Positions 41,861-64,000 of a stretch of DNA of 64,000 nucleotides are shown in pieces (positions within the stretch are counted from its first letter, which is position 1; each line of letters opens with the position of its first letter). Below the pieces are notes generated by a model. The model searched no databases. It was not told the origin of the DNA and was given only the letters and a program-made list of their open reading frames with translations. Both the position numbers and the translations under genes were made by a program. Source of the stretch: Candidatus Bathyarchaeota archaeon. Its GTDB lineage: Archaea > Thermoproteota > Bathyarchaeia > Bathyarchaeales > Bathycorpusculaceae. The DNA lies in the NCBI GenBank assembly GCA_963733095.1, contig CAVTBV010000004.1:20550-84549 (forward strand), written 5' to 3'.

Positions 41861-41947
41861 GAAAATTAAGGATTTAACGCAAAAAGGTTCTAATCTACCT
41901 GAATAAACTCTTACAAAATATAATCAGATTGAACTTTGGTTTAAATT

Positions 41948-44839
41948 ATGAGAGATAACGTTTCAATTAAGGGTGCACGGGAACACAACTTAAAAAACAT
42001 CGATTTAGAGTTGCCCCGAAACAAGTTTATAGTGATTACTGGGCTTTCAGGCTCAGGAAAATCTACCCTTGCGTTTGACACGATTTACGCTGAAGGGCAG
42101 CGGCGGTATGTGGAGAGCCTAAGCGCTTATGCAAGGCAGTTTCTGGGACTTATGGATAAGCCCGATGTGGATTCGATTGAAGGATTATCACCAGCAATCT
42201 CTATCGAACAAAAGAGCACCAGCAAGAATCCACGCTCAACTGTCGGTACAGTCACCGAAATCTATGATTACCTAAGGCTTCTCTTTGCCCGAATTGGGGT
42301 TCACCACTGCCCCAAATGCGGTAGCAGCATCCACCCGCAGAGTGCAGAAAACATCACCAGCCTCATTGTGGCTGAAAAAGGAAAAACCCTCACCTTCTTA
42401 GCCCCAGTCATACGAGGCATGAAGGGAACACACGAACAGATTTTTGACGACTTAAAAAAAGAAGGCTACACCAAGATTCGGGCTGACCAAAAAATCTACG
42501 AATCCGACTCAATCAAAGAAGAAGTCAAACTAGTGCGATATGAGAAGCACTGGATAGAAGCAGTAATCGACACTGTCACCATCAGCGACGAGGAACGCTC
42601 ACGAATCGCTGAAGCCGTCGAAGGCGCCCTCAAAATGGGCAAAGGTACCATGATTGTAATTGATGCGGCCAACGCGGATGCTGGTAAGAAAAAAGAGCTG
42701 GAACGTTTCGAAGGCGAAACCATGTACAGCACCTTTGGAGCCTGTCCAAACCACCCCGAAATCGTCTTCGAAAGCCTCGAGCCCCGCATGTTCAGCTTTA
42801 ACTCGCCGTTTGGCGCTTGCCCAACTTGCCACGGCTTAGGAGAAATCACTGAGGTTACCGCCGACAAAGTAATCCCTGACCCGTGTCTTTCCATAATGGA
42901 TGGAGGTTTGGCAGTTTATAAGGGCACAATGGAACTGAGTTGGCGTGCCCAGCAGATCGCGATGGTGGGCAAAAAATACGGCTTCGACGTGTTCATGCCC
43001 CTTAAGGATTTCACTGAACAGCAGCTCCAAGTGCTCCTCTATGGCGACAAAGAACCCATTAACGGCAACTGGTCTAACGGCGCGAGCATGTGGATGCGTG
43101 ACGGCTGGGAAGGCATTATCCCACAGACTATGCGTCTTTATCGGCAGACTGAGAGTGAATGGCGCAAAGAAGACATCGAAAAATTCATGACTTCCCGTCC
43201 CTGCGGAACATGCAAGGGCAAAAAACTCCAACCAGTCGTTCTCGCCGTAAAAGTCTTGGACAAAAGCATAATCGACATAACAGACCTCTCCATCGAAGAA
43301 TCAGTTGACTTCTTCCGAGACTTGCCAGAGAGGTTAAACGAAAATGAATTGTTCATAGCCAAGCAGATTCTTAAAGAAATCAACGAGCGGCTCGGTTTTC
43401 TTAAGAACGTTGGTTTGGGTTACCTCTCGCTTTCTAGGGCTGCAAAGACTCTTTCGGGGGGTGAAGCGCAGCGTATTCGTTTGGCGACGCAGATTGGCAG
43501 CAACCTCATGGGTGTACTCTACATACTCGATGAACCCAGCATCGGCTTGCACCAGCGAGACAACGCCAAGCTTATAAGCACTCTTCAGCGACTTCGTGAC
43601 TTAGGCAACACATTAATCGTGGTGGAACACGACGAGGAAACCATGCGACATGCCGACTACATAGTTGACATGGGACCCGGCGCAGGCATCCATGGCGGCC
43701 ACATCGTAGCAGAAGGGAGTCCCCAAGAAGTAATGACGAATCCTCGCAGCCTCACAGGCAAATACCTCTCAGGAGAACTCAAAATCGAAGTGCCCACTGA
43801 GCGCCGCCAACCGATAGACTATCTCACCGTTAAAGGTGCGCAAGAAAACAACCTCAAAAACCTCAGCCTAAAGCTCCCGCTTGGCGTGCTGTGTGGAGTT
43901 ACAGGTGTTTCGGGTTCGGGGAAGAGTACGTTGATGAATTTGACAGTTATTCCTGCCTTACGCAAAATGTTCGGTGAACAAGTTGATAAAGTTGGGAAAC
44001 ATGATGGATTGGATGTTCCCTTGGTCGTACGTAACGTAATCGTTATCGACCAAGATCCGATTGGACGGACACCAAGAAGCAACCCAGCCACCTATACCAA
44101 GCTGTTTGATGAAATCCGTCGCATCTTCGCTTCCACCAAAGAAGCTAAAGCTCGGGGCTACAAAGTGGGTCGCTTCAGCTTTAACGTGAAGGGCGGCAGA
44201 TGTGAAACTTGCCAAGGTGATGGTGTTCTGCGCATAGAAATGAACTTCCTTCCTGACGTGTACGTTCAATGTAGTGAATGTAAGGGCAAGCGCTACAACA
44301 AAGAAACCCTAAGCGTGCTGTATAAAGGCAAGAACATTGCCGAAGTGCTGGATATGACGGTTGAGGAAGCGGCAAAATTCTTCGAGAACACACCAAGGGT
44401 TTCACGCAAACTCGAAACGCTGCTCGACGTTGGCTTGGGCTACATTAAGCTGGGGCAAAGCTCAACCACTCTATCAGGTGGAGAGAGCCAACGCATCAAA
44501 ATCACTCGCGAACTCAGCAAGCACAAATCGGGGCACGTTGTTTACATGCTTGATGAACCCACTACCGGCTTGCACTTTGACGACACCAAACGCCTCATTA
44601 AAGTCCTCAATCGACTAGTGGACAACGGGAACACAGTGTATATCATTGAACACAATTTGGATGTAATCAAAAGCTGCGATTACCTTATAGATTTGGGGCC
44701 TGAAGGCGGAGCCGCAGGTGGCGAACTTTTAGCACAGGGCACGCCAGAAGAAGTTTCAGAGAACTCGAGTTCGTACACTGGGATGTTCCTTAAAAGAATT
44801 CTTCATAAGCAGGCGCCGTTGATTTCGAGTAATTCTTAG
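41948..44839 (+). CDS. uvrA: Excinuclease ABC subunit A
   Basis: GAREHNLK, two Walker A ([16 protein letters not shown]), Zn fingers, LSGGE and DEP motifs. Confidence 0.97.
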
Positions 44840-47908: not shown

Positions 47909-50116
47909 TTAGCTTTTTCTTTTGCTCCGACTATACATGATAACCAAGGTTGTGACTGAGAAACCTAATATGATGAGTAACACGGATGGGATAATCCATG
48001 GCGGATATTCAGGCGTGGACGGCAAATTAGCGAAAACAATGGATACTTCATGTGTGCTGAAATGGGTTGTACACCATACGTAGTAGTTGTCGCCGTCTTG
48101 CACGTATCCTTGGTCAGTGGCTACTTGACTGTCAACGTATATTGTTGGGGTTGCCCCGTTGGGTACTGCACCTTTGGGAATGGTTATGTTGCAAAAACCC
48201 CAGTTGCCGTTTTGCCCAATTATAATGAAAGAGATGTTTGTCGCTGTTTGGTTTGCGGATAAGGTGACGTTAGAGATTTGTTGAGCTGTCATATTGCTCC
48301 AAATCGGCAGTTCCACGGTGGTGTTGTCGTCTGTGGTTACTTCGATTGTCAGGATGTTAGGGGTTGGGGTTGGTGTGGAAATGTTTGTGAGAAGCGGGGT
48401 TGCTGTGGGTACGGGTGCTGGAGTTGTGGTGGGTAGCAGAGGTGATTGGGTTGGAGTCGCAGTTGCCGTAGGCGTAGGTGCAGGTGTTGGTGTAGGTATT
48501 ATGGTTGGTTCTGGGGTTGGAGTCGCCGTTGGAGTTGGTGTAGGTGATGGAGTGGGTGTAGCAGAAGGGGTTGGATTTGGTATCGATGTTGGCCTTGGGG
48601 TAATTGTTGGTTTAGGTGTCTGGGTTGGAATAGGGGTCGATGAAGGTGTGGGAGTAGGAGGGGTGGTTGGCGTGGGGGTTGGGTTAGGTGTAGGGGTTGG
48701 TGTGGTTGTTGGGGTTGGTGTGGGAGTTGGCGTTGGTGTAGAGGTTGGAGAGGGTGTAGGGGTAGGAGTTAAGGTGGGAGTAGGGGAGGGGGTCGGAGTT
48801 TTTGTGGGGGTTGGGTTAGGTGTAGGGGTTGGCGTGATTGTTGGCGTGGGAGTAGGTGTTGGTGTGGCCGTTGGATTTGGTGTTGGACTTGGTGACGGTG
48901 TTGAGCTAGGAGTAGGTGTTGGAGTAAGAGTCAGTGTTGGCGTGGGGGTCTCTGTTGGAGTCGGGGTTGGAGTGGGCGTCGGGGTATCGCTGGGTATTGG
49001 AGTCGGAGTAGGCGTTGGTTGGAAATCGCACCTTAGAGGGCTACCTAACCCCGTAACATAGTCATATCCTTCTGTTGCGTTGTAGCCGTTTGAGCCGTTG
49101 GTTATGTCTCGGAAGTAAGAGGAATAATCGGTTTTTGCTCTGGTATATAGGTTGGCGTTTGTTGCAGATTCGTTGAGGGCGTGGATTGCTGCCCACTGTG
49201 GTGTACCTGCACTTGTGCCTCCAACTGCTTCAACCCGAGAGTTCCAAACTACAATAAATCCTGTTTTAGGGTCAGCGTCGTAAGAAACGTCGGGTACACA
49301 CCGTTGGGTATTATTGAGTCCATAATTACTTTGGTATTGAGGCATACTTTCATAGGCGCTGACTCCGCCGCCGCTGCCGTTCCAACCAGTTTCGGAAATC
49401 ACTGACCCGTCTGAGCCTATGTTCAGTGTGGTTCCCCCTACAGCAACCACGTTTGGTGAACTTGCAGGCCAAATCGTTCCTGCCCCAAGGTCACCGGAGG
49501 CAGCGAAGAACACTTTTCCGTTGCTGACAAGATGTGAATCGTAGCCCAGTTGATCGTGTGATTCAGTGCTCCCCCAACTCATCGATATTGCAACCACATC
49601 TGGTCGACTGGCAGCATAATCCACCGCTGCGATTAGGTCGCTTACCGTGTTGCTGGTTGCTTCCACCAGCAGAATTTTTGCTTCAGGTGCAATAGCGTGA
49701 GCCCATTCGACATCCAAACATGTTTCCACCTGCCAGTCGACGTTTGTGCTGCTAATGTTGTCTGACATCATATGCACTTCAAAATTGCTTTCTGTGGGCA
49801 AGGGAAAGTCGAATTGGCTGGAAAACAAAGTCAAATCATGCGAGATTGTGGGGGTCTGGAAGGCGTCAATTATGGCGATTGTGGTACCATTTCCACCCGA
49901 CGAAGGCAACCCATAAGCGGCTTTTATCTGGGATGGAATATACAAGTCTGTGTAGTTGTTGGCAAAAGAATAAACACTCAGCGGAACACAGTAGAATTCG
50001 CCCAGCGATTTTGAAACCTGAATCAAACGAAATTCCAGAGTAAAACTACTGAAAACGACAAGTGCAATCGCCAAGACAGTTAAGGCACGGAACAGTAGAT
50101 GCCTCAAATCTAACAC
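47909..50116 (-). CDS. Cell-surface S53 (sedolisin-family) peptidase with Pro/Thr linker and C-terminal membrane anchor
   Basis: Signal/TM N-terminus; ETCLDVE, ASGD, PDVS, GGTSAG and GYD.VTGLG motifs; long PT repeat; PEYP plus TM plus basic tail. Confidence 0.9.
48350..49020 (-). repeat. Degenerate (Pro-Thr)n coding repeat
   Basis: About 220 codons of TPTP-rich sequence with diversified synonymous codons. Confidence 0.9.
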
Positions 50117-51265: not shown

Positions 51266-52406
51266 CTACCTGATGTACGCTTGGCTCGTCAACGCTCTAA
51301 CACATCCATTCTGAACCCTAGCAAGAGCAACCGCAACCTCGCAAAGCATACAAAGAGCCGCATGCAGCCTTGCCTTACGCAAACCCTTCTCCACCAACCC
51401 ATCCAAGATCCAGCCAATCCTTCTGGTGTCCATGCGTACCCTCAATGACACTGCGAGGAGAAGAATACAGCGACAGCCAACATTTCCTGTCACGTCTAAA
51501 CCAAGCTAAACTCTGGTTCCCAAAATAGGCGCCAGCATACTCATGCTCACCCAGCGATTGCTAATGCACAAACTATGTCTTCCAACTTATTCTTCTCAGG
51601 ATCTGGCTGCAATGCCTAGCTCAGCGAGCTTCCCAAGAGTCAGCTTACCAGCCTTGATCATTTTCGGAAAGCGTAGCTTAAGGGTCTTGGGATTACCTCT
51701 CCAACTGAATTTGTTTCGTTTGCGAAAGCCGATGAGCAGTTTGATGCCTAGGAAATTTGGGATTTCAAAGTTGAAGTAATGAGCATAGCCATTATCTAGT
51801 GCTAGCAGTTCAGGTTTAAAGTCGTCAGCTAACGTCTTAGCAAGTATGGGAACCATGAATTGGCCTTCGTCAACGTTGCCTGGCGTGACAACCCAGTTTA
51901 GGGTCAAGCCAGTCACTGCGCAGATGAGATGATGGAGAAGATAGCATCTCATCTTGTAGTGGCCGTTGTAGGCTGCTTGCTTATCGCTACTTTGAGCGGC
52001 TATGTGGGTGGCGTCTGCACAGATTATTTTGCCCATTTGAGTTCCTTGTGCAGCGAGGGTTTGATTGATGATCTTCATCATTTCAGTATGTATTGTTTCA
52101 AGTCCGTCGGGGCCTACGCGTTTGTTGAGCCAATGCCAGAGTGTCTTGTAGCTTGGTTTGTGCTTGAAGCCTAGAAGTTTGATTGTTTGGTTGTCGAGTT
52201 CTCTGTAGAGTTCGGTTAGGAATTTGTATCGTTTTAGTTTTTGGAGAGCAAGGAGTTTTAGGAATGCTTCCGGAGGATGCCTGATCTTGTAGGGTTCGAT
52301 GTAGAAGCGTCTTAGGGTATTAACGATTGGCGATAGGTCTAAGAAGACTTATGAACTGTACTGCGTCTATAGGTATATTCGGGGCAGGGTCAACGAAATT
52401 GGCCAT
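51266..52406 (-). mobile_element. Frameshifted DDE transposase (IS4/IS5/IS1182-like DDE_Tnp_1) remnant
   Basis: Pieces across frames: HPPEAFLKL...PSYKTLWHW, ADATH (D), LDNGY (D), RSVIEGTHG..K (E) and GLRKARLH; at least three frameshifts. Confidence 0.82.
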
Positions 52407-53823: not shown

Positions 53824-54450
53824 TTGGTTGATACATGGCGTGAACCCTATCATGTTGTAATCGAAGTCGAAAACAAGGAATGCAAGATGGTTGGAAAACT
53901 TGCATCGCTTGGGTTTAAGCACCTCAAAGTTGTTGACGTGCGAAGTTCAAACAGCGGCTCCGTTCGACATTTGATGGATGTGGGCGAAGACCAAAGGCTC
54001 AAAGTTCCCAAAGAACTCGCCGCCAAAGGCCACGTGGAAGGCAAATCAGCAGTGTGGCTGGAAAGCGAGGGCTGCGGAGTATGCAACACAATTTTGGCTC
54101 ATGACGCTTTTTTGGTGTCGGGCAAAAGCATGCAAGGCAACATAATAACCTACAGTTTCATGGTGCCGACCGCTGACGCCTACAGAGGCATATTGTCTGA
54201 TTTGGAAAAAGCTGGTCACAAAGTAAAAATCCTCAAAGTCGGCAAGTTCGAACAGCAAATAGGCGTTTTAACCGAGAATCAAGAGAGAATTTTTTGGTTG
54301 GCACTCAAAAGCGGCTTTTTTGATTATCCGCGGCAGATTGGTATGGCGGAGTTGGCGGCTAAGTTGGGCATTAGTGCGGCGACGCTCTCTGAGATTATGA
54401 GACGGGGAACGCGGAGGCTGCTGGAGCATTATTTTAAGCGTGAAATATAG
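53824..54450 (+). CDS. HTH_10 (Bat-like) transcriptional regulator
   Basis: LTENQERI..LA...GFFDYPRQI...ELA.KLGIS.ATLSE..RR. Confidence 0.88.
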   Translation: MVDTWREPYHVVIEVENKECKMVGKLASLGFKHLKVVDVRSSNSGSVRHLMDVGEDQRLKVPKELAAKGHVEGKSAVWLESEGCGVCNTILAHDAFLVSGKSMQGNIITYSFMVPTADAYRGILSDLEKAGHKVKILKVGKFEQQIGVLTENQERIFWLALKSGFFDYPRQIGMAELAAKLGISAATLSEIMRRGTRRLLEHYFKREI

Positions 54451-54591
54451 TGACGAGAACCGAAACAAAGTAGAAATCTACTGCACGCTCACGGACTACA
54501 TTACCGGTTTTATGGGAAAAATCAGGGTTTAGCCTTTTGTCTAATATAAATTTTCAAAAATGACTGATGCTATGGTAATTTTTATGGAGGT

Positions 54592-54999
54592 TTAATGGCT
54601 TATTTCAGCGGATTCTTCACGTGTCTTTAGTTTCTCTTCCAAAAGAACGAGCAGTTCCTGAGGTTTCACTGGCTTGACCAAATAAGCATCTGCGCCTTCA
54701 TCGAGCGCTTTAACACCCGTTTCAAGGGATGGAAAACCAGTAATCATGATTTTAACTGTGTGTTGGAGTTGTTTTTTGAGTTTTGCAAGTAAATCAGTAC
54801 CATCCATATCTGGAAGCCTAATGTCTACCAGCGCTAGGTCGTAGTGGCCTTTTTCAGCTTTTTCTATTGCTTCTTTGCCTGTTTCTGCTGTTTCAATTTC
54901 ATAACCGCTCTTTTGCAGAATACGCGTGAAGGTTCGCAGAATCGATTTATCGTCGTCAACAACGAGTATTGTTTTTTTAGATGTTGCCACTTCTAACAT
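54592..54999 (-). CDS. Standalone response-regulator receiver domain
   Basis: ILVVDDD, LVDIRLPDMDG, ITG and YLVKP. Confidence 0.92.
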   Translation of the reverse strand: MLEVATSKKTILVVDDDKSILRTFTRILQKSGYEIETAETGKEAIEKAEKGHYDLALVDIRLPDMDGTDLLAKLKKQLQHTVKIMITGFPSLETGVKALDEGADAYLVKPVKPQELLVLLEEKLKTREESAEISH

Positions 55000-55171
55000 T
55001 CCCTCTTAATTATAATTTTGGCTTTTCTTAAACCTTGCGCGGTCATAATAAGCCCCAAATCTTTGAGTTATCAAGCCAACTTGATGATTGGTTTGATTCA
55101 ACAAAGACTTCTTGCCCTTTACCATGGACAATCCTAACAATGTTTTCCGAGATTAATAAACGCTATCCCCC

Positions 55172-56719
55172 TTGATAAATTCAAAACGAAATGTTAACAA
55201 TAAAGTTATAACTCAGCAAAAGAAGATAAAATTGAGTATAACCGGTTTTGAGCGCATGGTATCTGCACGCATTTCTTACACAATAGACACCGAAGTTCCA
55301 TCCGCATACTATGAGAAGCTATTTGACTTCATTTATACGCAGTACCTTGTTCCGCAAAAACAACGATTCACAAACCTATTTCGGGAAACATCTCCGGGTA
55401 GCAACAAAATCTCATACGTTGTTCTCGATGCGCAAGGAAGACAAATTATAAGAGTTGAAGTGACAGGTAAAGACACCGTAAACGCTAACATAACACCCTT
55501 AGAATCGGATGTTTCAGAGGTAACCCTCAAAGAAGCAAGACAAGATGTTCTCATCGCAACTGAGCTGTTTGAGGAAAAGGCCCGTAAAGCGACATGGTAT
55601 TTTGCGTGGCGAGAAGGCGAAGAAATTGTACCTGAAAAAGTAAAGCTTCATGAAAAAAGCTTCAACCGCCTTTTCTTGGAAACCCAAGTTTTATTAACCT
55701 TCGTATTTATTGGGCTTGGACTGGGACTATTCGTTGTTGTTTTAGCATTTTACCCAAGCTACTTCTGGCTTGTCCCAATAATTTTGATTGCTTCACAATT
55801 CGTATTTGTCTTCTACTCAAACAAGATAATTGCCCGGTCAGGTGAGTGGACAATTACCAAGGAAAACCCCTACATACAATTCTTGGAATATCAGCCTCCA
55901 GTCGGGTCTTTAGGCACGTTAGATGACTATAAACAAATTTCGCCCGAACAGCTGGTAACTTTAAAGAAAGAAGTCTATGAAGAAATAACCGCCAAACACG
56001 GCGCAATCGACTGCCAAGAAGCAGAAAAAATCTTCACCAAATACGATGTATCATGCAGACTCGGCAGTCTATCAGCCAAAAAAATCAACGTCTACGAACT
56101 GGTAAAGAAAGTTGCCGACCGTTTCGGGTACAAAGTACCTAAAATCGTGATTTCGAACACGATGGTTCCCAACGCAGCAGCTTCGGGTCCCAGCCCCAGC
56201 CGAGGCATAGTTTTGATAACTACTGGATTGCTTGTTCAATTAGAGGAGCCTGAGGTCATAAGCGTTTTAGGGCATGAATTTGGGCATCTTAGAGGCAGAG
56301 ACCCCTTAATCCTGTTTGGGCTGTTGAGCGCAGAGTTCCTGTTTCGGTTCTATGTATTGCTAGCGTTTTTCCCCTTCATATTCACTTCTCTGCTGTTCTT
56401 CATCTACTTCTTCGCAGTTATGACCCTAATATTCTTCATAGCGAAATTCTTTGAAGCCCGCGCAGACTTGACGTCGGCTATAATGATGGGGCAACCTAAG
56501 GTGATGGCTAGGTCGCTTGAGAAAATTGGGTTCCACAGACTTTTGTTTGAGCGAACGCCGAGTTTTCGTTTGCAGGAGTGGGTTGGCTTAGATTCGCACC
56601 CGCCGATTTACTTTAGAGTGGAACGTTTAGAGAATCTTGGAGATGAGAAGATTAAACATCCACTGGTTCAGTCGATTAAGGATGTGGTTAGAGGTTTTGC
56701 CGCTACCCTAAAAAGCTAA
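55172..56719 (+). CDS. M48 (HtpX-like) membrane zinc metalloprotease with long N-terminal extension
   Basis: PNAAA.G, TTGLL, HEFGH, EARAD and HPP..R; likely start ATG at 55256. Confidence 0.88.
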
Positions 56720-57195
56720 AATCTTCCCCGTTTGCAACCAAGTCCACCTTTCCGCATTTTGGTTTTTTGTCGATAAAGCCAAACTAAGACTAATCCCTGA
56801 TGAAGCTAAAACAACTTAGTAAGAAGCAACATTATTCATTGCTGGGATTGATGGTGTTGAGGAAGGTGAAGTCGTCGGGGTGCAGATGGTGGCAAAGAAT
56901 AAGCAGGGTTGCCTATCACGAAATTCCTCTCATTATCTAACCCGTAGTAGTAATGCAGAGTTGTTTGTTAAGCACGACTGCGCAACTACTGATCTCTGGG
57001 CTTGTTTTGTGTCCACAGTATTCAGCCAATCATAGAATCGCGCATGGTATTCGGTCTGAGCATACTCCATATTGTAAGAATAATTATGAGTTGAAAAACC
57101 AATAAAAGAAATACCATTCGTCTATCCAAATAAAAAAGTGTCTTCCTTAAATAAGGACACTGAAATCGTATCAATTATTGTCTTGCGGGATTGTC

Positions 57196-58632
57196 TTATT
57201 TTTTAGATTCATTATTTCTTAGAGTTTGGCAAATCTTAATCAGCGAACTAATTCTATGTCTGCTTACCCAAACCAGTCCTGACAACAAAAACGCGTACCC
57301 AAAATACTGGACACTCATGAGGAGGCTAGTTACGCCGATTGGAGCATCATTAAAAAGTGAATAGCCCAAGTTAACATGAGGTTCTACTTTGAAAAGCAAA
57401 TAATTCCACGTGGAAAATAAATGCACATAATTCATGTTATAACTTATTGCTGCCCCCACCAATATGAAGCATGCTAAAGCAACGAAAAAATAGGGTATCT
57501 TGTTTAGTTTCTTTTTTCCCTTGTTTAAATTAATAAGTGAAATGTTTTTGGTTATCAATGATGCAGCTAACAAACTGAAGAATGGTAGTGATTGATAATC
57601 ATATTTTATTGCGTTTTGATAAGGAGATTTAAGGTCTAAACTTGCCCCCAAAAAAGTGTTAACGCCAATAACACAAATAATAGCGGCTAAAAAGATAGCG
57701 TCAAAAACTAAAAACTTGTGAAATAAGCGTCTTTGAATCACGCACATGATTAACGATAAGATTGCTGCATCAATAAAAAACCATCCTAAACCATAGCTTA
57801 CCAGAAAATTGCCAACAAAAAAATATGACGGAACAATGTTGCTGGGTTCATTGATTATAAAATCAGTATGAACAAAAATGGAGAACAGTCCCAATCCAGT
57901 AATTGTTTGATACCATAAATAAGAAACCAGTAACACAGGCAAGAAAAATGCCGCCAACCAGCTTACGATACGCATAATGTTTTTTGGTCTATAATAGAAG
58001 AAGAGGGCTAATAATGGGACAAGAACAAAGATCGCATACAATTTTGTATTAAATGCAGCCGCAAAAATAATCCCAGCAGCAAAAAAAAGTTTGAATGAAT
58101 CCCTGCGAACAGCAATTATTCCTACGAACAAAGCTAATAGACTGAAGAATAAACACTGCACATCTATTAGGAATGTTCTGGAGAGGACAAGGTGCCATGG
58201 GCTAAAAGCGAATAGAGCCGCCGCGAAAAAGCCCGTTGTCTTGTCATACAGAGTCTTCCCAATTCCATAAACTAAGGCAACGCATCCAAGCCCAAACAAA
58301 GTAACCAAGAATGTACCATTGTAAATTGATGAACCGAAAACTTTGAAGAAAACTGCTATAATGTAAAAGCCTAACGGAGGCTGGTTAATTAAGCACAAAC
58401 CGTTCGCATAGGGCAAACCATATTTCATTACTCCCGACACAGCATCGTATTCCCATGCTGTATCGCCGTTGTAGTAGGGTCCTATTGAAATAGCAACGAG
58501 CATGAACCCGATTAAAATGCTTAACAAGGGGTAATTTTCGATAAAGAATTTTTTTAGACTATCCACTTTTACAGGTTTTTCTACAGTTCTGTTCTTTTGT
58601 AGTATTCGGGTAGTTGATGCTCTGTTTTCCAA
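57196..58632 (-). CDS. ArnT/PMT-like (GT-C) membrane glycosyltransferase
   Basis: QPPLG, G..LY...G..AA.LFA.SP, SR..LID and TK motifs; multi-TM. Confidence 0.78.
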   Translation of the reverse strand: MENRASTTRILQKNRTVEKPVKVDSLKKFFIENYPLLSILIGFMLVAISIGPYYNGDTAWEYDAVSGVMKYGLPYANGLCLINQPPLGFYIIAVFFKVFGSSIYNGTFLVTLFGLGCVALVYGIGKTLYDKTTGFFAAALFAFSPWHLVLSRTFLIDVQCLFFSLLALFVGIIAVRRDSFKLFFAAGIIFAAAFNTKLYAIFVLVPLLALFFYYRPKNIMRIVSWLAAFFLPVLLVSYLWYQTITGLGLFSIFVHTDFIINEPSNIVPSYFFVGNFLVSYGLGWFFIDAAILSLIMCVIQRRLFHKFLVFDAIFLAAIICVIGVNTFLGASLDLKSPYQNAIKYDYQSLPFFSLLAASLITKNISLINLNKGKKKLNKIPYFFVALACFILVGAAISYNMNYVHLFSTWNYLLFKVEPHVNLGYSLFNDAPIGVTSLLMSVQYFGYAFLLSGLVWVSRHRISSLIKICQTLRNNESKK

Positions 58633-58742
58633 AGCTATTTACTATCCTTAAAACACCATTTATTGGTCTTTGAACATAAGGTTTTTCTATGATAAGGGTT
58701 TAAAAAAGTTGCAAATCAAAGAAACAGTATTTTAAACAGGTT

Positions 58743-59822
58743 TCAACCGACTATGTTCTTCAGGTAAGGTAACCTCTTTAATGGGGCGATTATGGCGAGG
58801 CAGATGAGTAGGGTAACTACAGTTATTAATGGAATTTCTATTATTGGATTGATTGTTGTTACGCTTATTTTAAAGCCCAAGTACCCTTTTTGGAGAGACT
58901 CCAAGACTATCACGTGGAAAAGGTAGATCGGCAAAGTATTTTCACTAATACTTTTGAGGACTTTGCTGCCGCGGGGAAATTTAGTTTCTACAGTTTGGTT
59001 GGGGATGGCGGCTAAGATAAGGAACAACGTGACTGAAGCGATTATAACACTAAAGCTTGATGCGTCAAGGAAGAATTGACTGTAATTTTCTCCTAATGTG
59101 CCAACCAGGAAATATGTTCCCATTATCGTCCAAACGGTGCTTAATGTTAAGCCTATGTAAAGAATTGACGGTCGAAAACGCAGCTTAGCTACGTAAGCTC
59201 CCAAGACAAAGTAGCCGATTAAACCAATCAATAGAAAAACACTGTCTCTAAACCACACAGCCTGTGGGCTAATGTTTGCGTATAGAATAAGCAGAGAAAC
59301 TATACCTGTGCCAACAAACCAAATGAGCAGAAAATACCGTATGATCCGCCAATCAGCATGAGCCACGACCACCCGCAAAATAGGCGTGACAAGGTATAAG
59401 CCGATCAAAATGTACACGTACCAAAAATGAACATACGGTCCCGCAAGCACACCCTGGAGGATGGAAACTGTTGTTAGGGCTTGTCCCTTAACCGTAAAGT
59501 CCCATGCAAAGAATATTGCGCCCCAAAACAGGACCGGTATCCCAATTCTGTTCCAACGTTTCTTAAAGAAAACCCGCAGTGGCTCATCAGCTTTGTTCGG
59601 CTGGAGCAGTAGGGCACCAGTTAACATGATGAACAATGGTACGGCTGTTCTTGATATCGAATCGTAAACGTTTGATGTCCACCAGAGTTGCACACCCTCA
59701 GGCGACATAAAATTCAAGGTTGGGTTGGGCTCGATTGCGGCATGAAGTAAAATAACAAGAATTATGGCTACTGTACGGATAAGGTCAACGGGAAGAGTAG
59801 TGCCCTGGGTCTTTGGGTACAT
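58743..59822 (-). CDS. Acyltransferase-3 family membrane O-acyltransferase
   Basis: DLIR.VAI..VILLH, AVPLFIM.TG.L, KKR..R, HFWY and IYLFH motifs. Confidence 0.9.
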   Translation of the reverse strand: MYPKTQGTTLPVDLIRTVAIILVILLHAAIEPNPTLNFMSPEGVQLWWTSNVYDSISRTAVPLFIMLTGALLLQPNKADEPLRVFFKKRWNRIGIPVLFWGAIFFAWDFTVKGQALTTVSILQGVLAGPYVHFWYVYILIGLYLVTPILRVVVAHADWRIIRYFLLIWFVGTGIVSLLILYANISPQAVWFRDSVFLLIGLIGYFVLGAYVAKLRFRPSILYIGLTLSTVWTIMGTYFLVGTLGENYSQFFLDASSFSVIIASVTLFLILAAIPNQTVETKFPRGSKVLKSISENTLPIYLFHVIVLESLQKGYLGFKISVTTINPIIEIPLITVVTLLICLAIIAPLKRLPYLKNIVG

Positions 59823-59924
59823 TTCGATCCCTTAAGTTTTATACTGTGTGTTTTGCTATTAACGATTTGCATTTACGCTAAAAAAAACGTTAGTTTGCAT
59901 GGAAAAGCAGTTTTGCAAAAAAAA

Positions 59925-60638
59925 TTAACTTACGTTGAAATAATAATCATTTGGGGAACCATCTGGCAACGTTATTGCGTCATATACGTTGGAAGCAATG
60001 AGTGATGCACCATCAGGGTTTGGATGCACCCCATCCATAAAATATTCTGAGTGGTTACCAAAAACATCGTACATGTTAACTGTAGGCAAATCTAATTGGT
60101 TTGCAACATTGTCAACATGCGGTATCACCGAATTAACAAGGTATGTATTGTTGTAACTTGAGGTAGTGCTGAAAATCGGCGGTGACTCAACAATCCAGAT
60201 TAGCTGATTACCCTCAAGATTTTCAAAAGAGGTGACCAACTGGATATAGTCAGATTCAAAATTGTCTTCGCTGTGAGCGATTTCTGGGTTAGCATCATTT
60301 GTTCCAAGCATTATTACAACTATGTCGGGATCGAAGTTTTCTGCGTTCTTGAATGCGGTCTGGTTCATGTAAGGTATAGTGGAATTTTGTGACACAGTGG
60401 ATCCGCAGACGCCAAAATTACCCACCGTATAGTTAGAGCCAAGTAGCATTTGAAGTTTGTAGGGATATCCGCTTCCCTGAGTTATACTGTCTCCCACACA
60501 AGCAACACGTACTGGTGTACCTAAAACAAGAGGTGTCGTTGCTACGCAGTATGCGGCAAGACCAGCTGACAGAATCATCACGGAAATTACGATTGCTGAT
60601 ACCGTTGTTTTCAGATCCATACCATTTGCCTCGACCAT
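59925..60638 (-). CDS. Membrane-anchored/secreted SGNH (GDSL) hydrolase
   Basis: N-terminal TM; GDSIT, NFGV.G, LGTND and DGVHP blocks. Confidence 0.9.
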   Translation of the reverse strand: MVEANGMDLKTTVSAIVISVMILSAGLAAYCVATTPLVLGTPVRVACVGDSITQGSGYPYKLQMLLGSNYTVGNFGVCGSTVSQNSTIPYMNQTAFKNAENFDPDIVVIMLGTNDANPEIAHSEDNFESDYIQLVTSFENLEGNQLIWIVESPPIFSTTSSYNNTYLVNSVIPHVDNVANQLDLPTVNMYDVFGNHSEYFMDGVHPNPDGASLIASNVYDAITLPDGSPNDYYFNVS

Positions 60639-60736
60639 TCAGCGTTTGACACTTACGCAATTGAAATATTGGTTTCTATTGGAAGATTCGAATGCTAAGG
60701 TTTTAACCAGAATAGAGGCTCATCCAATATAAAATT

Positions 60737-61035
60737 TTAGGTAGAAATAGCCTGTTCGTCTTCATCCACGGTGACAATAAATTCGAGTTCGGGCTCCTTC
60801 ACGATAATGGCACTTCTTCTTTTTATGAGGCTTGCCTTTAGCATTAACGAGCCGCTTATCATAGCTCCTAAACCACCCAAGATACACATGTAACGAGTGT
60901 AGCCTCCAAAAAGTGGGTGAACTCCCTCTGACCACCCAAATAGGGCAAACTCTAAGGCTGAGGTACCTACAATTAACGCTAAAGCTCCAACTGTAATTTT
61001 GTTTTTAAGATGTTCGATTATTTTAGGCGTTGCAT
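60737..61035 (-). pseudogene. Small two-TM protein with apparent 1-nt frameshift near the start
   Basis: ATG CAA CGC CTA AAA TAA; adding one A restores MQRLKIIEHLKNKITVGALALIVG...EDEQAIST. Confidence 0.4.
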
Positions 61036-61517
61036 TGCACCTTCTAGGCGGATATTGTTTAGGTGCACATTAAGTGTGGCATGGGTAAACGGTTTATGAA
61101 ATCAAGGTTCATATTTGAAATATTTTTTCGAAAAAACTTGTTCACCCCACATGTTAATAGTCTGAAAATCAGCTAATGCAGACCTATCCATCTATCGTTT
61201 CTGCATAAAACTACTATTAGGTTCCAAATAAAAAAATTTCAAACTGTCGCAGAAAAAGAAAGAGCACTATCTTACTTTTCTCTTTATTTTGCTTCCATCG
61301 TCAAATGTAAGAACCCTCTGTGCAGGGTTTACTTTTGGAGCGACTTTTTCAACAATTTTCTTTTCAGTTTTATTCGTGTTTAACAAGCTATCCGTTAGAC
61401 AAGAGATTCGACTTAAAACTTTGGTGGCTAATAAAATACTAATCGCTGCATTTTAATCACTAGAGTTTATCCATGCTTACTTTTAGAGGTGGTTTGCAAC
61501 TTCCTTTGTTGGTGTTG

Positions 61518-62819
61518 TTATTCAATTTTACTATGTCTGTACCTCAAGATAGCGGCGAAGCCTCCTAAGGCTGTGAGCTTGGCTTTTTCCGTCGACTCTG
61601 TCGATATCACCTCAACCCTTGCGTCTGTCTGCGAAGCCAAATCCTCCAGAACATCAATTATGTCCTTCTCCTCCACTTCATAATCAACCGCATTGCACCT
61701 CGAACATGGACTCGAAATCATATCCCGCGTTGCTTGAACCTTCTGCTCGTTATGCAAAATTTTCGACTTTGATAATCTGCATTTTTTGCACAATAGAACA
61801 ACTTGAATCATTTCTGTAGTGTCCGCCACTAATGCAACTTCCACTTCACCATTCTTAAGAGCCGCCAAAACCACATCTAAACCGTAAGTAGCTAAATTGT
61901 CTTGTTTGCCCAGATAAGTCAAAAGCCGTTGCACAATCAATCTTTCCTCAGGTGCACACATGTTCTTGATGGTCTCGGATGATTTGTCAAGAACCTCTTT
62001 CACTCCTTCTTTGTCGGCGGATTGTGTATCAACCGTGCTAACTAGGGCATTTTGGAGTTCATAATGAAGATAATCACCCTTTAGAAAATCCTCTTTGGTT
62101 AGCCCCGGTCCCCCAACTGTCAACGCCGTAACTTTGTGTTTTTCAAGAAACGCTTTTGCAGAATGCTCTGCAACTCGGTGGAAATAGTTTGTGAGCGCCA
62201 TATCGCGTTCTCTTTCATACCTTCGTTGGCTTGACCCGCCCTTTCCAGACTTGCCATGAATCCCCGAAGTAATATTCTCAAGAATTTCAAGGCGTTCACC
62301 ATTGAGAACCCCAAAGCTTGCCTCCTTTGAATCCAAAACAATTACCCCAACAACTTTTTGGTTTCTCAGCATTTCTCTTATAGGCTCTAACCGAAAATGG
62401 TTGTCAACTTCGTAGAGGTATGCGGTAATCGGTTCTGGTGGAGCGAGCTCTTCAACGTATAAAACTTCGTTTTCCGAGTTGTTAGGAGCGAAAGTCCCAG
62501 CAAATAAGGCAATTCCATTCTCAGGGATTTGATTCTGTAGTTTCAGTCGTTGGATAATATTCTTGAGAGCATCTTGCAGATGGTCTCTGATGTTCCTTGC
62601 GTTCTCGTACTTTGAGGTTGCCTCTTCGGATTCATCCTTTAGGTTTGCAACTACTTTGTCCAGCGATGAGTCTCGTGGTATGTAGAGCGAGATAAACTCC
62701 ATGCCCTTGCCCTCTTTGTCGGATAACCATGCCACGAGCTTTCTTAGTTTGTGCTGCTTCACTGAATTTGTGGTTGCCATCTGACATCCATGAAAATGTG
62801 TTGAAACCAAATTCGACAC
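61518..62819 (-). CDS. aRF1/eRF1 paralog with atypical motifs
   Basis: G.G.EFISLYIP, PENG.ALF.G, GGPG.TK.DF, YG, CxxC/CxxC insertion and LGGFAAILRY; GGSSQ replaces GGQS. Confidence 0.9.
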   Translation of the reverse strand: MSNLVSTHFHGCQMATTNSVKQHKLRKLVAWLSDKEGKGMEFISLYIPRDSSLDKVVANLKDESEEATSKYENARNIRDHLQDALKNIIQRLKLQNQIPENGIALFAGTFAPNNSENEVLYVEELAPPEPITAYLYEVDNHFRLEPIREMLRNQKVVGVIVLDSKEASFGVLNGERLEILENITSGIHGKSGKGGSSQRRYERERDMALTNYFHRVAEHSAKAFLEKHKVTALTVGGPGLTKEDFLKGDYLHYELQNALVSTVDTQSADKEGVKEVLDKSSETIKNMCAPEERLIVQRLLTYLGKQDNLATYGLDVVLAALKNGEVEVALVADTTEMIQVVLLCKKCRLSKSKILHNEQKVQATRDMISSPCSRCNAVDYEVEEKDIIDVLEDLASQTDARVEVISTESTEKAKLTALGGFAAILRYRHSKIE

Positions 62820-62898
62820 CTTAACGTTCAGTTACGGGGAATACTAATTTATAGAGTTTCTCAATAAGGGTATTTGTTTGGCAAGAGGAAATATTTTG

Positions 62899-64000
62899 AT
62901 GAAGAGAACAAAGATAATATGCACTATGGGTCCTGCTTGTTCTTCAAAGCAAGCTATCAAAAAAATGTTTCATGCAGGCATGAACGGTGCAAGGATAAAC
63001 ACTGCCTATGGAAATCTTGCCCAATATCAAACTGTTATAGAAACGGTGCGGGAAATTGCCGAAATCCCCATCCTTATTGACATTAAAGGGCCCGAAATCA
63101 GAATCAAAGCATCACAAAGAAAAATCTTGCAAAAAGGCGACACCTTGGAAGTGGGGTTTGACGGCGAAGCTGTCTGTTTCAATCACGATTTTTACGATAA
63201 AATGCAGGTTAATGATGAAATCTACATTGACAACGGAAAAATCAGAACCCGCGTAGTTGAAAAGAAAGACCGAAAACTTTTGCTTCTAACCCTAACCAAC
63301 GGTGTGGTAGAGGATGGAAAAGGAGTCAACGTTCCCAATAAGTCCCTTGCAGTTCCAACTTTTCCTGAAAAAGACCTTGAAATCATAAAGTTTGCAAAAA
63401 AACACGACGTCGAATACGTTGCCCTTTCATTTACAAGAAATGCACAGGATGTAAGAAACCTCTCTGAAACCAACAGCTTTAAGGGAGGAATAATCGCAAA
63501 GATCGAGAATTCTGAAGGCGTGCAGAATGTCGAAGAAATTTTGGATGCTTCCAGTGGGTTAATGGTTGCAAGGGGCGACTTAGGTGTTGAGATTGAACCT
63601 GAAAGAGTGCCTTTAGTTCAGAAATCACTCATCAAATTGTGTAATCAAAAGGGTAAGCTCGTCGTTACGGCGACAGAGATGCTTGAATCTATGATTAATC
63701 AACCTAACCCAACTAGAGCTGAGGTAAGCGATGTTGCAAATGCCATACTTGACGGCTCAGATGCAATAATGCTTTCAGGCGAAACAGCGGTCGGTCAATA
63801 TCCATTGGGTGCTGTTGAGATGATGACGCGTATTGCAAATGAAACAGAGAAGGCGGTCAAGAGCAACGTTGAAGACACATCCTTCATCAACATTTCTGAC
63901 ACTGTAAGCCGAGCAATCCAGAGGATAAGCCAAAGCATGCCGGTTCACAAAGTTATTCCCCTAACACGCTCAGGATACACACCCCGAATGATAGCCCGCT
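62899..64000 (+). CDS. pyk: Pyruvate kinase (runs off the window end)
   Basis: TKIICTMGP, DIKGPEIR, KGVNVP, AKIE, MVARGDLG, PTRAEVSDVANA and MLSGET. Confidence 0.95.
   Translation, partial: MKRTKIICTMGPACSSKQAIKKMFHAGMNGARINTAYGNLAQYQTVIETVREIAEIPILIDIKGPEIRIKASQRKILQKGDTLEVGFDGEAVCFNHDFYDKMQVNDEIYIDNGKIRTRVVEKKDRKLLLLTLTNGVVEDGKGVNVPNKSLAVPTFPEKDLEIIKFAKKHDVEYVALSFTRNAQDVRNLSETNSFKGGIIAKIENSEGVQNVEEILDASSGLMVARGDLGVEIEPERVPLVQKSLIKLCNQKGKLVVTATEMLESMINQPNPTRAEVSDVANAILDGSDAIMLSGETAVGQYPLGAVEMMTRIANETEKAVKSNVEDTSFINISDTVSRAIQRISQSMPVHKVIPLTRSGYTPRMIAR

What the first reader, a model, noticed from the sequence alone, without database searches (positions are those of the whole stretch)
61518..62819. 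aRF1 paralog without GGQ, NIKS or YxCxxxF: candidate codon-independent rescue or regulatory factor
Seen: a full three-domain aRF1 architecture, but the catalytic loop reads GKGGSSQRRYER (codons GGC GGG TCA AGC CAA), NIKS is absent and YxCxxxF reads YEVDNHF. Known: GGQ is essentially invariant in true release factors, while Vms1/VLRF1 and bacterial aeRF1-like families carry shifted GGSQ/GGxSQ loops; Vms1 acts in ribosome rescue. An Rqc2 homolog is in the same window. Inference: a non-canonical factor acting on stalled ribosomes or 50S-peptidyl-tRNA, or a competitor of aRF1.
Basis: partly seen in the sequence, partly recalled or inferred. Interest (0 to 1): 0.7.

Follow-up and report, generated by a model that had tools for sequence, protein, structure and literature searches.

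The report
Spare archaeal release factor, altered loop
This gene is an extra, horizontally traded copy of the archaeal translation-termination factor that has lost its stop-codon-reading residues and its classic catalytic glutamine but keeps the rest of its ribosome-entering parts tightly conserved, so it probably releases or rescues ribosomes in special situations rather than ending normal proteins.

Summary
Window 61518-62810(-) encodes a full three-domain aRF1-fold protein whose loop reads GKSGKGGSSQRRYERER. NIKS is replaced by TSKY and YxCxxxF by YEVDNHF. The likely start is a conserved TTG at 62810, not the GTG at 62819.

It is not the cell's terminator. The same genome has a canonical aRF1 (TASNIKS, YRCDSRF, GGQ) and a Pelota.

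The gene belongs to an accessory family found only in its own Bathyarchaeia family: 10 of 101 genomes sampled, and 0 of 284 genomes elsewhere in the phylum sample. The scan met this family before on other DNA (e1-2449357).

- **Catalytic loop:** in 131 members GG, S184 and Q185 never vary, while the classic Gln position changes at least 15 times (S/Q/E/M/W/A).
- **Selection:** purifying, with dN/dS 0.13-0.28.
- **Transfer:** the gene alone moves between genera.
- **Linkage:** no neighbouring gene is conserved. The Rqc2 gene lies 40 kb away and is near-universal in the family.

Best reading (about 0.5): an aEF1A-delivered A-site factor that no longer reads stop codons and still reaches the peptidyl-transferase centre with a GGxSQ loop. 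Three DPANN genomes use GGWSQ in their only aRF1, which suggests such loops work.

It is a new variant of a known kind. Its function is untested.

The parts
61518..62810 (-). Coding sequence of the aRF1 paralogue: 430 aa from the conserved TTG, with the stop codon at 61518-61520.
62846..62853 (-). TATA-box-like TATAAATT, conserved in the closest loci.
   Evidence: sequence alignment only; transcription not shown
62817..62822 (-). AAGGTG, a Shine-Dalgarno-like site 6 nt before the TTG start.
62772..62810 (-). Family-specific N-terminal tail (LVSTHFHGCQMAT). In 63 homologues that include it, H is kept in 60, F in 60, C in 63 and Q in 58. It is disordered in the model.
62364..62771 (-). N domain (eRF1_1 fold), the stop-codon-reading domain in aRF1. 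It is the most diverged domain.
62607..62618 (-). TSKY in place of NIKS. N is lost and I is not kept. K is kept in 89% of the family.
62394..62414 (-). YEVDNHF in place of YxCxxxF. V replaces the invariant C in 94% of the family.
61959..62363 (-). M domain (eRF1_2), the best conserved domain.
62226..62240 (-). GGSSQ, the tip of the catalytic loop. GG, S and Q(+2) are invariant in the family. The third residue (S here) sits at the classic Gln position and is variable.
61521..61958 (-). C domain (eRF1_3) with an inserted CxxC...CxxC zinc ribbon (61695-61790) and the C-terminal ALGGFAAILRY motif (61539-61571).

Best explanation
The gene encodes a member of an accessory, horizontally exchanged aRF1 paralogue family confined to one family of Bathyarchaeia. 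It works beside the normal terminator, not in its place.

**Proposed mechanism**
- The protein keeps the tRNA-mimic body of aRF1, so it enters the ribosomal A site. It is most likely delivered by aEF1A-GTP, as aRF1 and Pelota are.
- Its N domain has lost the residues that read stop codons and has gained a conserved N-terminal HFxxCQ tail. It therefore probably engages ribosomes that do not show a normal stop codon.
- Its M domain carries a fully constrained loop of the GGxSQ type that still reaches the peptidyl-transferase centre. There it most likely triggers peptidyl-tRNA hydrolysis through the GG backbone and Gln(+2). That would make it a spare releaser or rescue factor for a special kind of stalled ribosome.

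**Shown**
- Paralogue status, the pattern of constraint, purifying selection, gene-only horizontal transfer, restricted distribution, and the absence of linked genes.

**Inferred**
- A-site binding, delivery by aEF1A, catalysis, and the nature of the substrate ribosome.
For: **1. It is not the terminator.**
- G000 has a canonical aRF1 scoring 511 bits with TASNIKS, YRCDSRF and GGQSARRYER, and a Pelota scoring 247 bits.
- All 10 of the 10 carriers in the family sample also have a canonical copy. Scores are bimodal: 54-100% identity for the paralogue against 35-39% for the canonical copy.

**2. Fold.**
- PDB best hit by sequence is aRF1 4AF1, E 1.8e-60.
- The AF2 model has pLDDT 82.8. Foldseek's top hit is 4AF1, E 5e-37, followed by ribosome-bound eRF1 structures.

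**3. Constraint pattern** (131 paralogues against 68 canonical aRF1s).
- In the M domain, 15 of 18 canonical-invariant positions are kept: S172, K177, G181, G182, S184, R187, R190 and others.
- Q183 is the only loop position released (S 0.46).
- Q185 is 1.00 in the paralogues; canonical aRF1s have A there at 0.63.
- Position 183 changes at least 15 times on a tree of the 131.
- Burroughs & Aravind use fixed loop length plus a conserved Gln as their mark of active families. They describe inactive families (Dom34, most baeRF-1) as having loops that are poorly conserved in sequence and unconstrained in length.

**4. The C-terminal GTPase-binding motif is kept.**
- G407 0.98, A410 0.98, L412 1.00, R413 1.00, Y414 0.97.
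- The motif's role comes from Atkinson 2008 (passage).
- The genome has only one aEF1A.

**5. Stop-codon readers are lost.**
- N of NIKS has no counterpart.
- I goes to M at 0.42.
- T of GTx goes to M at 0.70.
- C of YxCxxxF goes to V at 0.94.

**6. Selection.**
- dN/dS is 0.13-0.28 in the 14 least-diverged of 66 pairs. The median is 0.147, against 0.043 for the canonical gene, in the 8 pairs where dS is finite for both.
- All 14 copies in reference genomes are intact ORFs.

**7. GGxSQ can serve termination.**
- Three DPANN genomes, including a closed 1.05-Mb Aenigmatarchaeota chromosome, have a single aRF1 with GGWSQ and intact NIKS and YxCxxxF.
- Among the representatives, 11 of 14 loops without the classic Gln have SQ next, against 27 of 83 GGQ loops. 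Eight spurious pattern matches were dropped by eye. Two of the 11 are fragments of this family.
Against: - There is no experimental or expression evidence of any kind.
- The classic Gln position tolerates bulky or charged residues (W, M, E), which would also fit a loop that no longer catalyses.
- The paralogue evolves about twice as fast as the canonical gene: mean identity 63% against 81% in the same 66 genome pairs, and a median dN ratio of 2.0.
- In the more distant members the YxCxxxF-equivalent varies (FAIDDHF, FAMDRVF, FEVGNLF), so the N domain may not read anything specific.
- The gene is dispensable: 91 of 101 family genomes lack it.
- Degraded copies exist. G177 has two aRF1-like loci with 2 and 8 in-frame stops, and earlier scan note e1-2449357 reports a broken copy.
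- In G159 (94% complete) only the paralogue was found. However, three other genomes 90-97% complete show no aRF1 at all with the same search, so this may be incompleteness.
- Binding to aEF1A was not tested.
- That the Gln side chain is not essential for hydrolysis in bacterial RFs is recalled from Shaw & Green 2007. That paper was not held.
Confidence: 0.5

Rival explanations
1. It is a non-catalytic A-site factor. It occupies the A site and either promotes subunit splitting like Pelota, parks idle ribosomes like the bacterial aeRF1-like hibernation factor Balon, or competes with aRF1 to tune termination.
For: - The classic catalytic Gln is free to vary: S60, Q53, E10, M3, W3, A2 of 131.
- NIKS is lost, as in Balon (passages).
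- Foldseek finds Balon and Rv2629 structures at E 2e-18 to 1e-16.
- NCBIfam gives a weak Rv2629 hit.
- Carriers are mostly the larger genomes of the family: 9 of 32 genomes of 2.0 Mb or more, against 1 of 69 smaller ones. This was counted by eye from the rounded sizes.
- Only one of the two Methanosarcina barkeri aRF1 copies is reported to recognise stop codons in vitro (passage in PMC12626013). That the other is inactive is recalled.
Against: - Pelota, Balon and most baeRF-1 families have lost the GG loop, or its length varies. Here loop length is fixed and 10 of 11 loop positions are at 0.98-1.00.
- The Rv2629 model scores 29.9 bits against a cut-off of 320.
- A Pelota is already present.
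Confidence: 0.25
2. It is a Vms1/VLRF-1-like factor that frees nascent chains from 50S-peptidyl-tRNA complexes together with Rqc2.
For: - The GGxSQ loop matches the one reported for aVLRF-1 and acVLRF-1.
- An Rqc2/NFACT homologue exists in the genome.
Against: - The protein keeps all three aRF1 domains, the zinc ribbon and the GTPase-binding C-terminal motif. aVLRF-1 lacks the C domain and has an N-terminal coiled coil, and acVLRF-1 lacks the N domain.
- Rqc2 is 40 kb away and sits on other contigs in the other carriers. It is present in 77 of 91 family genomes without the paralogue and in 10 of 10 with it.
- No neighbour is conserved across 13 loci.
Confidence: 0.1
3. It is a release factor with altered codon specificity, reading a subset of stop codons or some other codon or context.
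For: - The N domain is under purifying selection.
- It keeps the counterparts of human eRF1 E55 (0.89), K63 (0.89), Y125 (0.93) and F131 (1.00). Residue roles are recalled; numbering is taken from the alignment.
- 53 of 131 members still have GGQ.
Against: - No pyrrolysine genes score above cut-off.
- No suppressor tRNA is among the 33 tRNAs that aragorn found, though intron-bearing tRNAs were not sought.
- The canonical aRF1 has all of its motifs.
- The N-domain motifs differ among sub-lineages of the family.
Confidence: 0.1
4. It is a redundant duplicate drifting toward loss, with no function of its own.
For: - It evolves twice as fast as the canonical gene.
- Its distribution is patchy.
- Degraded copies exist in G177, and an earlier scan note (e1-2449357) reports another.
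Against: - dN/dS is 0.13-0.28.
- About 129 positions are conserved at 95% or more that are not conserved in canonical aRF1s.
- All 14 reference-genome copies are intact.
- There was recent gene-only transfer between genera: paralogue dS is 0.14 where the canonical dS is saturated, and 94% nt identity is confined to 1373 bp.
Confidence: 0.05

Closest known systems
Canonical archaeal release factor aRF1 (TIGR03676; PDB 4AF1, 3AGK/3VMF)
   Same: - Same three domains plus the zinc ribbon.
- Scores 370 bits on the family model.
- Same loop length.
- GG, the Arg-rich helix and the C-terminal GTPase-binding motif are all kept.
   Different: - Only 36% identical to the genome's own aRF1.
- NIKS, the C of YxCxxxF and the T of GTx are lost.
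- The classic Gln is unconstrained and Gln(+2) is invariant.
- It has an extra N-terminal HFxxCQ tail.
- It is accessory and horizontally exchanged.
aVLRF-1 and acVLRF-1 (Vms1-like release-factor clade; Burroughs & Aravind 2019, PMC6514570, sections 2.2 and 2.3 read)
   Same: The GGxSQ catalytic-loop motif.
   Different: - aVLRF-1 lacks the C domain and has a long N-terminal coiled coil.
- acVLRF-1 lacks the N domain.
- This protein has all three domains, and no coiled coil appears in the model.
- On the trees it sits inside classical aRF1s, next to a group with canonical motifs. VLRF-1 sequences were not included in those trees.
Balon / Rv2629 (bacterial aeRF1-like hibernation factor; PMC10901736, passages read)
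   Same: - An aeRF1 fold without NIKS and without the classic GGQ Gln.
- An accessory A-site protein that works with the EF-Tu/EF1A-type GTPase.
   Different: - Balon replaces the GG loop with a lasso loop.
- Balon also has an HP motif, a bL27 trap and a beta-hairpin insertion.
- Here the GG loop is intact.
- The Rv2629 model scores 29.9 against a cut-off of 320 bits.
Pelota / Dom34
   Same: A paralogue of aRF1 that acts on ribosomes without a stop codon and is delivered by aEF1A.
   Different: - Pelota has an Sm-like N domain and no GG loop.
- TIGR00111 scores 66.5 against a cut-off of 177.65 bits.
- A true Pelota is present in the genome.
Second aRF1 copies in other archaea (Methanosarcina aRF1-2; 4.3% of archaeal genomes have two copies, PMC12626013, one section read)
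   Same: An extra aRF1 copy beside the working one, commoner in larger genomes.
   Different: - It is a different lineage. Methanosarcina copies were not compared here.
- This genome has no pyrrolysine system.
- The paper's table of genomes (SI Table S9) could not be read, so it may already list Bathyarchaeia.
DPANN aRF1s with GGWSQ (seen here; no paper describing them turned up in the one search that bears on it)
   Same: A GGxSQ loop on a full-length aRF1.
   Different: - Those proteins keep NIKS and YxCxxxF.
- Each is the only aRF1 in its genome, so they are presumably the normal terminators.

Membership tests
Canonical aRF1 (TIGR03676 equivalog) | Score above the curated family cut-off | tested here: met
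   370.6 bits against a cut-off of 234.7
Canonical aRF1 (TIGR03676 equivalog) | NIKS stop-codon motif | tested here: not met
   TSKY here. In the family, N is lost, I is at 0.42 and K is kept at 0.89.
Canonical aRF1 (TIGR03676 equivalog) | YxCxxxF motif | tested here: not met
   YEVDNHF here. V replaces C in 94% of the family; C is 1.00 in 68 canonical aRF1s.
Canonical aRF1 (TIGR03676 equivalog) | GGQ catalytic motif | tested here: not met
   GGS here. 53 of 131 family members keep Q.
Canonical aRF1 (TIGR03676 equivalog) | The genome's terminator (single essential copy) | tested here: not met
   A canonical copy is present in G000 and in all 10 of 10 carriers in the family sample.
Pelota (TIGR00111) | Family score above cut-off; Sm-like N domain; no GG loop | tested here: not met
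   66.5 against 177.65 bits. The N domain matches eRF1_1 and the GG loop is present.
aVLRF-1 | GGxSQ loop | tested here: met
   GG.SQ in 131 of 131. Motif as given.
aVLRF-1 | No C-terminal Pelota-type domain; long N-terminal coiled coil | tested here: not met
   eRF1_3 is present at 3.1e-16. In the model the N terminus is a 13-residue tail followed by one short helix, residues 15-30.
acVLRF-1 (PF18859) | Pfam score above cut-off, and loss of the stop-codon-binding domain | tested here: inconclusive
   41.9 bits against a cut-off of 27.1, but the canonical aRF1 of the same genome also scores 39.8. The N domain is present, so the architecture is not met.
Balon / Rv2629 hibernation factor (NF052289) | Family score above cut-off; lasso loop in place of GG; HP motif | tested here: not met
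   29.9 against 320 bits. The GG loop is kept. The HP motif was not examined.
baeRF family 10 (PF18854) | Pfam score above cut-off; bacterial family | tested here: inconclusive
   35.6 against 27.1 bits. The organism is archaeal, and the much stronger aRF1 match covers the same region. Whether canonical aRF1s also hit this model was not tested.

The most novel reading that the evidence does not exclude
In the a/eRF1 fold, the catalytic glutamine can sit two residues further along the loop (GGxSQ instead of GGQ).

- This family shows the hand-over in progress. Gln(+2) became fixed on the stem, where the closest canonical relatives have Ala. After that the classic Gln drifted freely.
- The same loop serves as the only terminator in some DPANN archaea, and it marks the VLRF-1 rescue factors.
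- On this reading the Bathyarchaeia protein is a mobile spare releaser. It has given up reading stop codons and frees ribosomes stalled on messages or ribosomes damaged by some recurrent insult.
Probability: 0.3. Interest if true: 0.7.

Novelty: new variant of a known kind. Interest (0 to 1): 0.55.

Why it matters
GGQ is taught as universal and indispensable in class-1 release factors. This family is a natural experiment: across 131 sequences everything around the glutamine is frozen while the glutamine itself is free, and a second glutamine two residues on is frozen instead.

Three DPANN genomes have GGWSQ in their only aRF1. Together the two observations make a concrete question testable: is GGxSQ a second working catalytic loop of the a/eRF1 fold, as has been assumed but never tested for the Vms1-like families?

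The family also adds a candidate third A-site factor, beside aRF1 and Pelota, to archaeal ribosome rescue. That pathway is poorly known. The candidate moves between genera as a single gene.

Tried and rejected
- **Pyrrolysine link (as proposed for Methanosarcina).** PylS and PylB models score far below cut-off in G000. Rejected.
- **Suppressor tRNA.** None among the 33 tRNAs aragorn found. Intron-bearing tRNAs were not sought.
- **Conserved neighbours.** All-against-all BLASTP of ORFs from 13 loci found only the paralogue itself shared by three or more loci, apart from one unrelated cluster. A Pfam scan of 99 flanking ORFs showed ordinary unrelated genes. Pyruvate kinase is adjacent in 2 of 13 loci and a transposase fragment in 1.
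- **Virus or defence origin.** No relative was found in viral contigs with single-protein patterns. There were no PADLOC or PHROGs hits.
- **Extra GTPase partner.** Only one aEF1A is present.
- **A separate VLRF-1 in the genome.** PF18859 hits only the paralogue and the canonical aRF1.
- **Origin.**
  - On two quick trees the family (support 100, stem about 0.7) is sister to a group with canonical motifs (P0124, P0125, P0127, P0135), apart from the family's own canonical aRF1s.
  - An AU test does not reject an origin next to those canonical aRF1s (p = 0.126).
  - The sister group was not found in 201 class genomes at E <= 1e-160, and its cluster names gave no taxonomy. The origin is left open.
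- **RNA evidence.** No RNA holder was listed.
- **Complex prediction (paralogue M+C domains with aEF1A and GTP).** The queue was full at every try, so no job ran and there is no result.
- **Mapping the published aEF1A contact residues of A. pernix aRF1.** The short-query PDB search did not return that chain.
- **Papers.**
  - PMC2175178 was not held.
  - Searches found no description of this family. One search was swamped by the ARF1 GTPase.
- **DPANN-type searches.** P0224 was not found in the phylum sample or in genome contigs. Alignment A3 was too diverse to search with.
Full report
**What is there**

- The minus-strand ORF 61518..62819 matches all three eRF1 Pfam domains. It scores 370.6 bits on NCBI's aRF1 equivalog model, whose cut-off is 234.7.
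YEVDNHF and TSKY stand where YxCxxxF and NIKS should be.
- The best solved relative by sequence is the aRF1 of PDB 4AF1 (E 1.8e-60), with an ungapped loop alignment.
- An AlphaFold model built on 42 sequences has pLDDT 82.8 and the aRF1 architecture. Foldseek ranks 4AF1 first (E 5e-37) and ribosome-bound eRF1s next.
- The start is probably the TTG at 62810:
  - A GGTG site lies 6 nt upstream and a TATAAATT box about 40 nt upstream.
  - The TTG is conserved across loci, and one relative has ATG at that place.
  - The internal ATG that many gene callers choose is I, L or V in 25 of the 63 homologues that include the tail.
- The tail carries a family-specific motif. Of those 63, E is kept in 59, K in 61, H in 60, F in 60, C in 63 and Q in 58. 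It is disordered in the model.

**It is a paralogue**

- The window's genome is 2.84 Mb in 16 contigs and 95% complete. It holds a canonical aRF1 on contig C9 (511 bits; TASNIKS, YRCDSRF, GGQSARRYER) and a Pelota on C5 (247 bits).
- The two aRF1-type proteins are 36% identical.
- A second, identical copy on C13 is a contig-end overlap of 10.1 kb at 98.8% identity.
- Source names of four close homologues say Bathyarchaeia. Two others carry bacterial labels, which I take for binning errors.

**The family**

- A search of 5.8 billion proteins listed 120 homologues at 69-100% identity.
- In these plus the query, the loop is GG[S60 Q44 E9 M4 W3 A1]SQRRYER. GG, S and the second Q are present in 121 of 121. 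V replaces the C of YxCxxxF in 119 of 121.
- I compared 131 members (117 of these 121, kept for being 405-445 aa, plus 14 from reference genomes) with 68 canonical aRF1s from across archaea, looking at positions that are at least 85% conserved in canonical aRF1:

| Domain | Conserved canonical positions | Kept | Switched | Released |
|---|---|---|---|---|
| M | 18 | 15 | 0 | 3 (Q183 is the only released loop position) |
| N | 23 | 14 | 3, including C to V | 6, including the T of GTx and the I of NIKS |
| C | 13 | 7 | 4 | 2 |

- The counterparts of human eRF1 E55, K63, Y125 and F131 persist. Their roles are recalled; the numbering comes.
- Q185 is invariant in the family, where canonical aRF1s mostly have Ala (0.63). 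The closest canonical sequences all read GGQSA, so Gln(+2) was most simply fixed on the stem of the family.
- Position 183 changes at least 15 times on a FastTree of the 131.

**Distribution and evolution**

- In 101 genomes of the same taxonomic family, hits fall into two classes, 54-100% and 35-39% identity to the query. Ten genomes, in 7 of 55 genera, have the first class, and all ten also have the second.
- None was found in 171 genomes of 30 other families of the class (E <= 1e-130), nor in 284 genomes outside the family in the phylum sample (E <= 1e-120).
- Nine of the ten carriers are among the 32 genomes of 2.0 Mb or more. This was counted by eye from the rounded sizes.
- For 12 genomes with both genes (66 pairs), mean identity is 63% for the paralogue and 81% for the canonical gene. 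By domain, paralogue against canonical: N 57 against 82, M 69 against 87, C 62 against 75.
- dN/dS of the paralogue is 0.13-0.28 in the 14 least-diverged pairs.
- Two genomes of different genera (G262, G267) have paralogues with dS 0.14, while the dS of their canonical genes is saturated. The shared DNA is 94% identical over 1373 bp only: the gene plus about 100 bp upstream. Several other pairs show the same contrast. The gene therefore moves between genera on its own, perhaps by replacing resident alleles. That last point is inference.
- No neighbour is conserved among 13 loci.

**Origin**

- Two quick maximum-likelihood trees give the family full support, with a long stem (about 0.7) and short inner branches. 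They place it beside a group with canonical motifs, several of whose members carry inteins, apart from the family's own canonical aRF1s.
- The alternative is not rejected (AU p = 0.126).
- The organisms holding the sister group remain unidentified. I leave the origin open.

**Mechanism**

- The anatomy says that the protein still mimics a tRNA, still carries the motif through which aRF1 and Pelota bind their GTPase, and still presents a rigidly conserved GG loop with its Arg-rich helix.
- Families of this fold that no longer catalyse (Pelota, Balon, most baeRF-1) have lost the loop or let it vary in length. Families predicted to be active keep a fixed loop with a conserved Gln, and aVLRF-1 and acVLRF-1 have exactly GGxSQ.
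- There is independent support that such a loop works. Three DPANN genomes, one of them a closed 1.05-Mb chromosome, have a single aRF1 with GGWSQ and intact NIKS and YxCxxxF, plus one Pelota-like protein.
- Among 50%-identity representatives, 11 of 14 loops lacking the classic Gln have SQ next, against 27 of 83 GGQ loops. Eight spurious pattern hits among 105 were dropped, and two of the 11 are fragments of this family.
- I therefore favour, at about 0.5, a stop-codon-independent releasing or rescue factor delivered by aEF1A.
- A non-catalytic A-site binder comes next at 0.25.
- Less likely are the Vms1-type 50S reading at 0.1, an altered codon specificity at 0.1, and a decaying duplicate at 0.05.
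- The Rqc2 gene of the window is no evidence for the 50S reading. It lies 40 kb away and is present in 87 of 101 family genomes: all 10 carriers and 77 of 91 non-carriers.

**Against my reading**

- Nothing has been tested at the bench, and no RNA data were available.
- The paralogue evolves twice as fast as the canonical gene.
- Its N-domain motifs differ among sub-lineages.
- Degraded copies exist (scan note e1-2449357).
- In one 94%-complete genome only the paralogue was found.

**Novelty**

- Extra aRF1 copies are known. A 2025 paper reports that 4.3% of archaeal genomes have two, with no functional assignment (one section read; its table could not be read).
- GGxSQ is known from the VLRF-1 families.
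- In seven full-text searches I found no description of this full-length Bathyarchaeia family, of the shift in constraint from Gln(0) to Gln(+2), or of its gene-only transfer.
- Earlier notes of this scan had already met the family on other DNA (e1-2449357).
- I class it as a new variant of a known kind.

Noticed in passing
L061/L064 (Candidatus Aenigmatarchaeota chromosome CP070801.1, G541 C1:139215-140399); L060/L065; L057/L063 (Candidatus Iainarchaeum): Three DPANN genomes have a single aRF1 (over the TIGR03676 cut-off) whose loop reads GGWSQ instead of GGQ, with intact NIKS and YxCxxxF. The only other eRF1_2-domain protein in each is a Pelota-sized one. GGQ would then not be universal in primary archaeal release factors. 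One full-text search found no mention of this.
   Followed up: partly
Representatives P0122-P0270, e.g. P0148, P0124, P0127: Many aRF1 representatives are 500-1450 aa long, with the match split at about residue 183 (right after GGQ, before the Ser) or at about residue 122 (at the Cys of YxCxxxF). This looks like inteins inserted exactly in the two key motifs. It was not examined further.
   Followed up: no
window 53923-64000 (= end of contig C4) and the start of contig C13: The last 10.1 kb of C4 repeats the first 10.1 kb of C13 at 98.8% identity. The two contigs probably join here, or represent two strains. The pyruvate kinase differs by one residue between the two copies.
   Followed up: yes
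L053 (G177 C2:6751-7896) and L054 (G177 C5:531988-533232): A genome of the same genus holds, beside an intact paralogue, two further aRF1-like loci with 2 and 8 in-frame stops. No intact canonical copy was seen with this query.
   Followed up: no
window 19243-21138 (+): An Rqc2/NEMF homologue (NFACT_N + NFACT-R_1). It is a near-universal gene in this family, found in 87 of 101 genomes, and is not linked to the paralogue.
   Followed up: yes
window 47912-49771 (-) and 48001-50000: A 620-aa ORF with no Pfam match lies in a stretch of unusual composition (GC 0.508, GC skew +0.33, against about 0.44 and about 0 elsewhere). A DDE transposase fragment follows at 51599-52081.
   Followed up: no
window 40046-44836 (+): Bacterial-type UvrB and UvrA genes lie side by side in this archaeal genome.
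   Followed up: no
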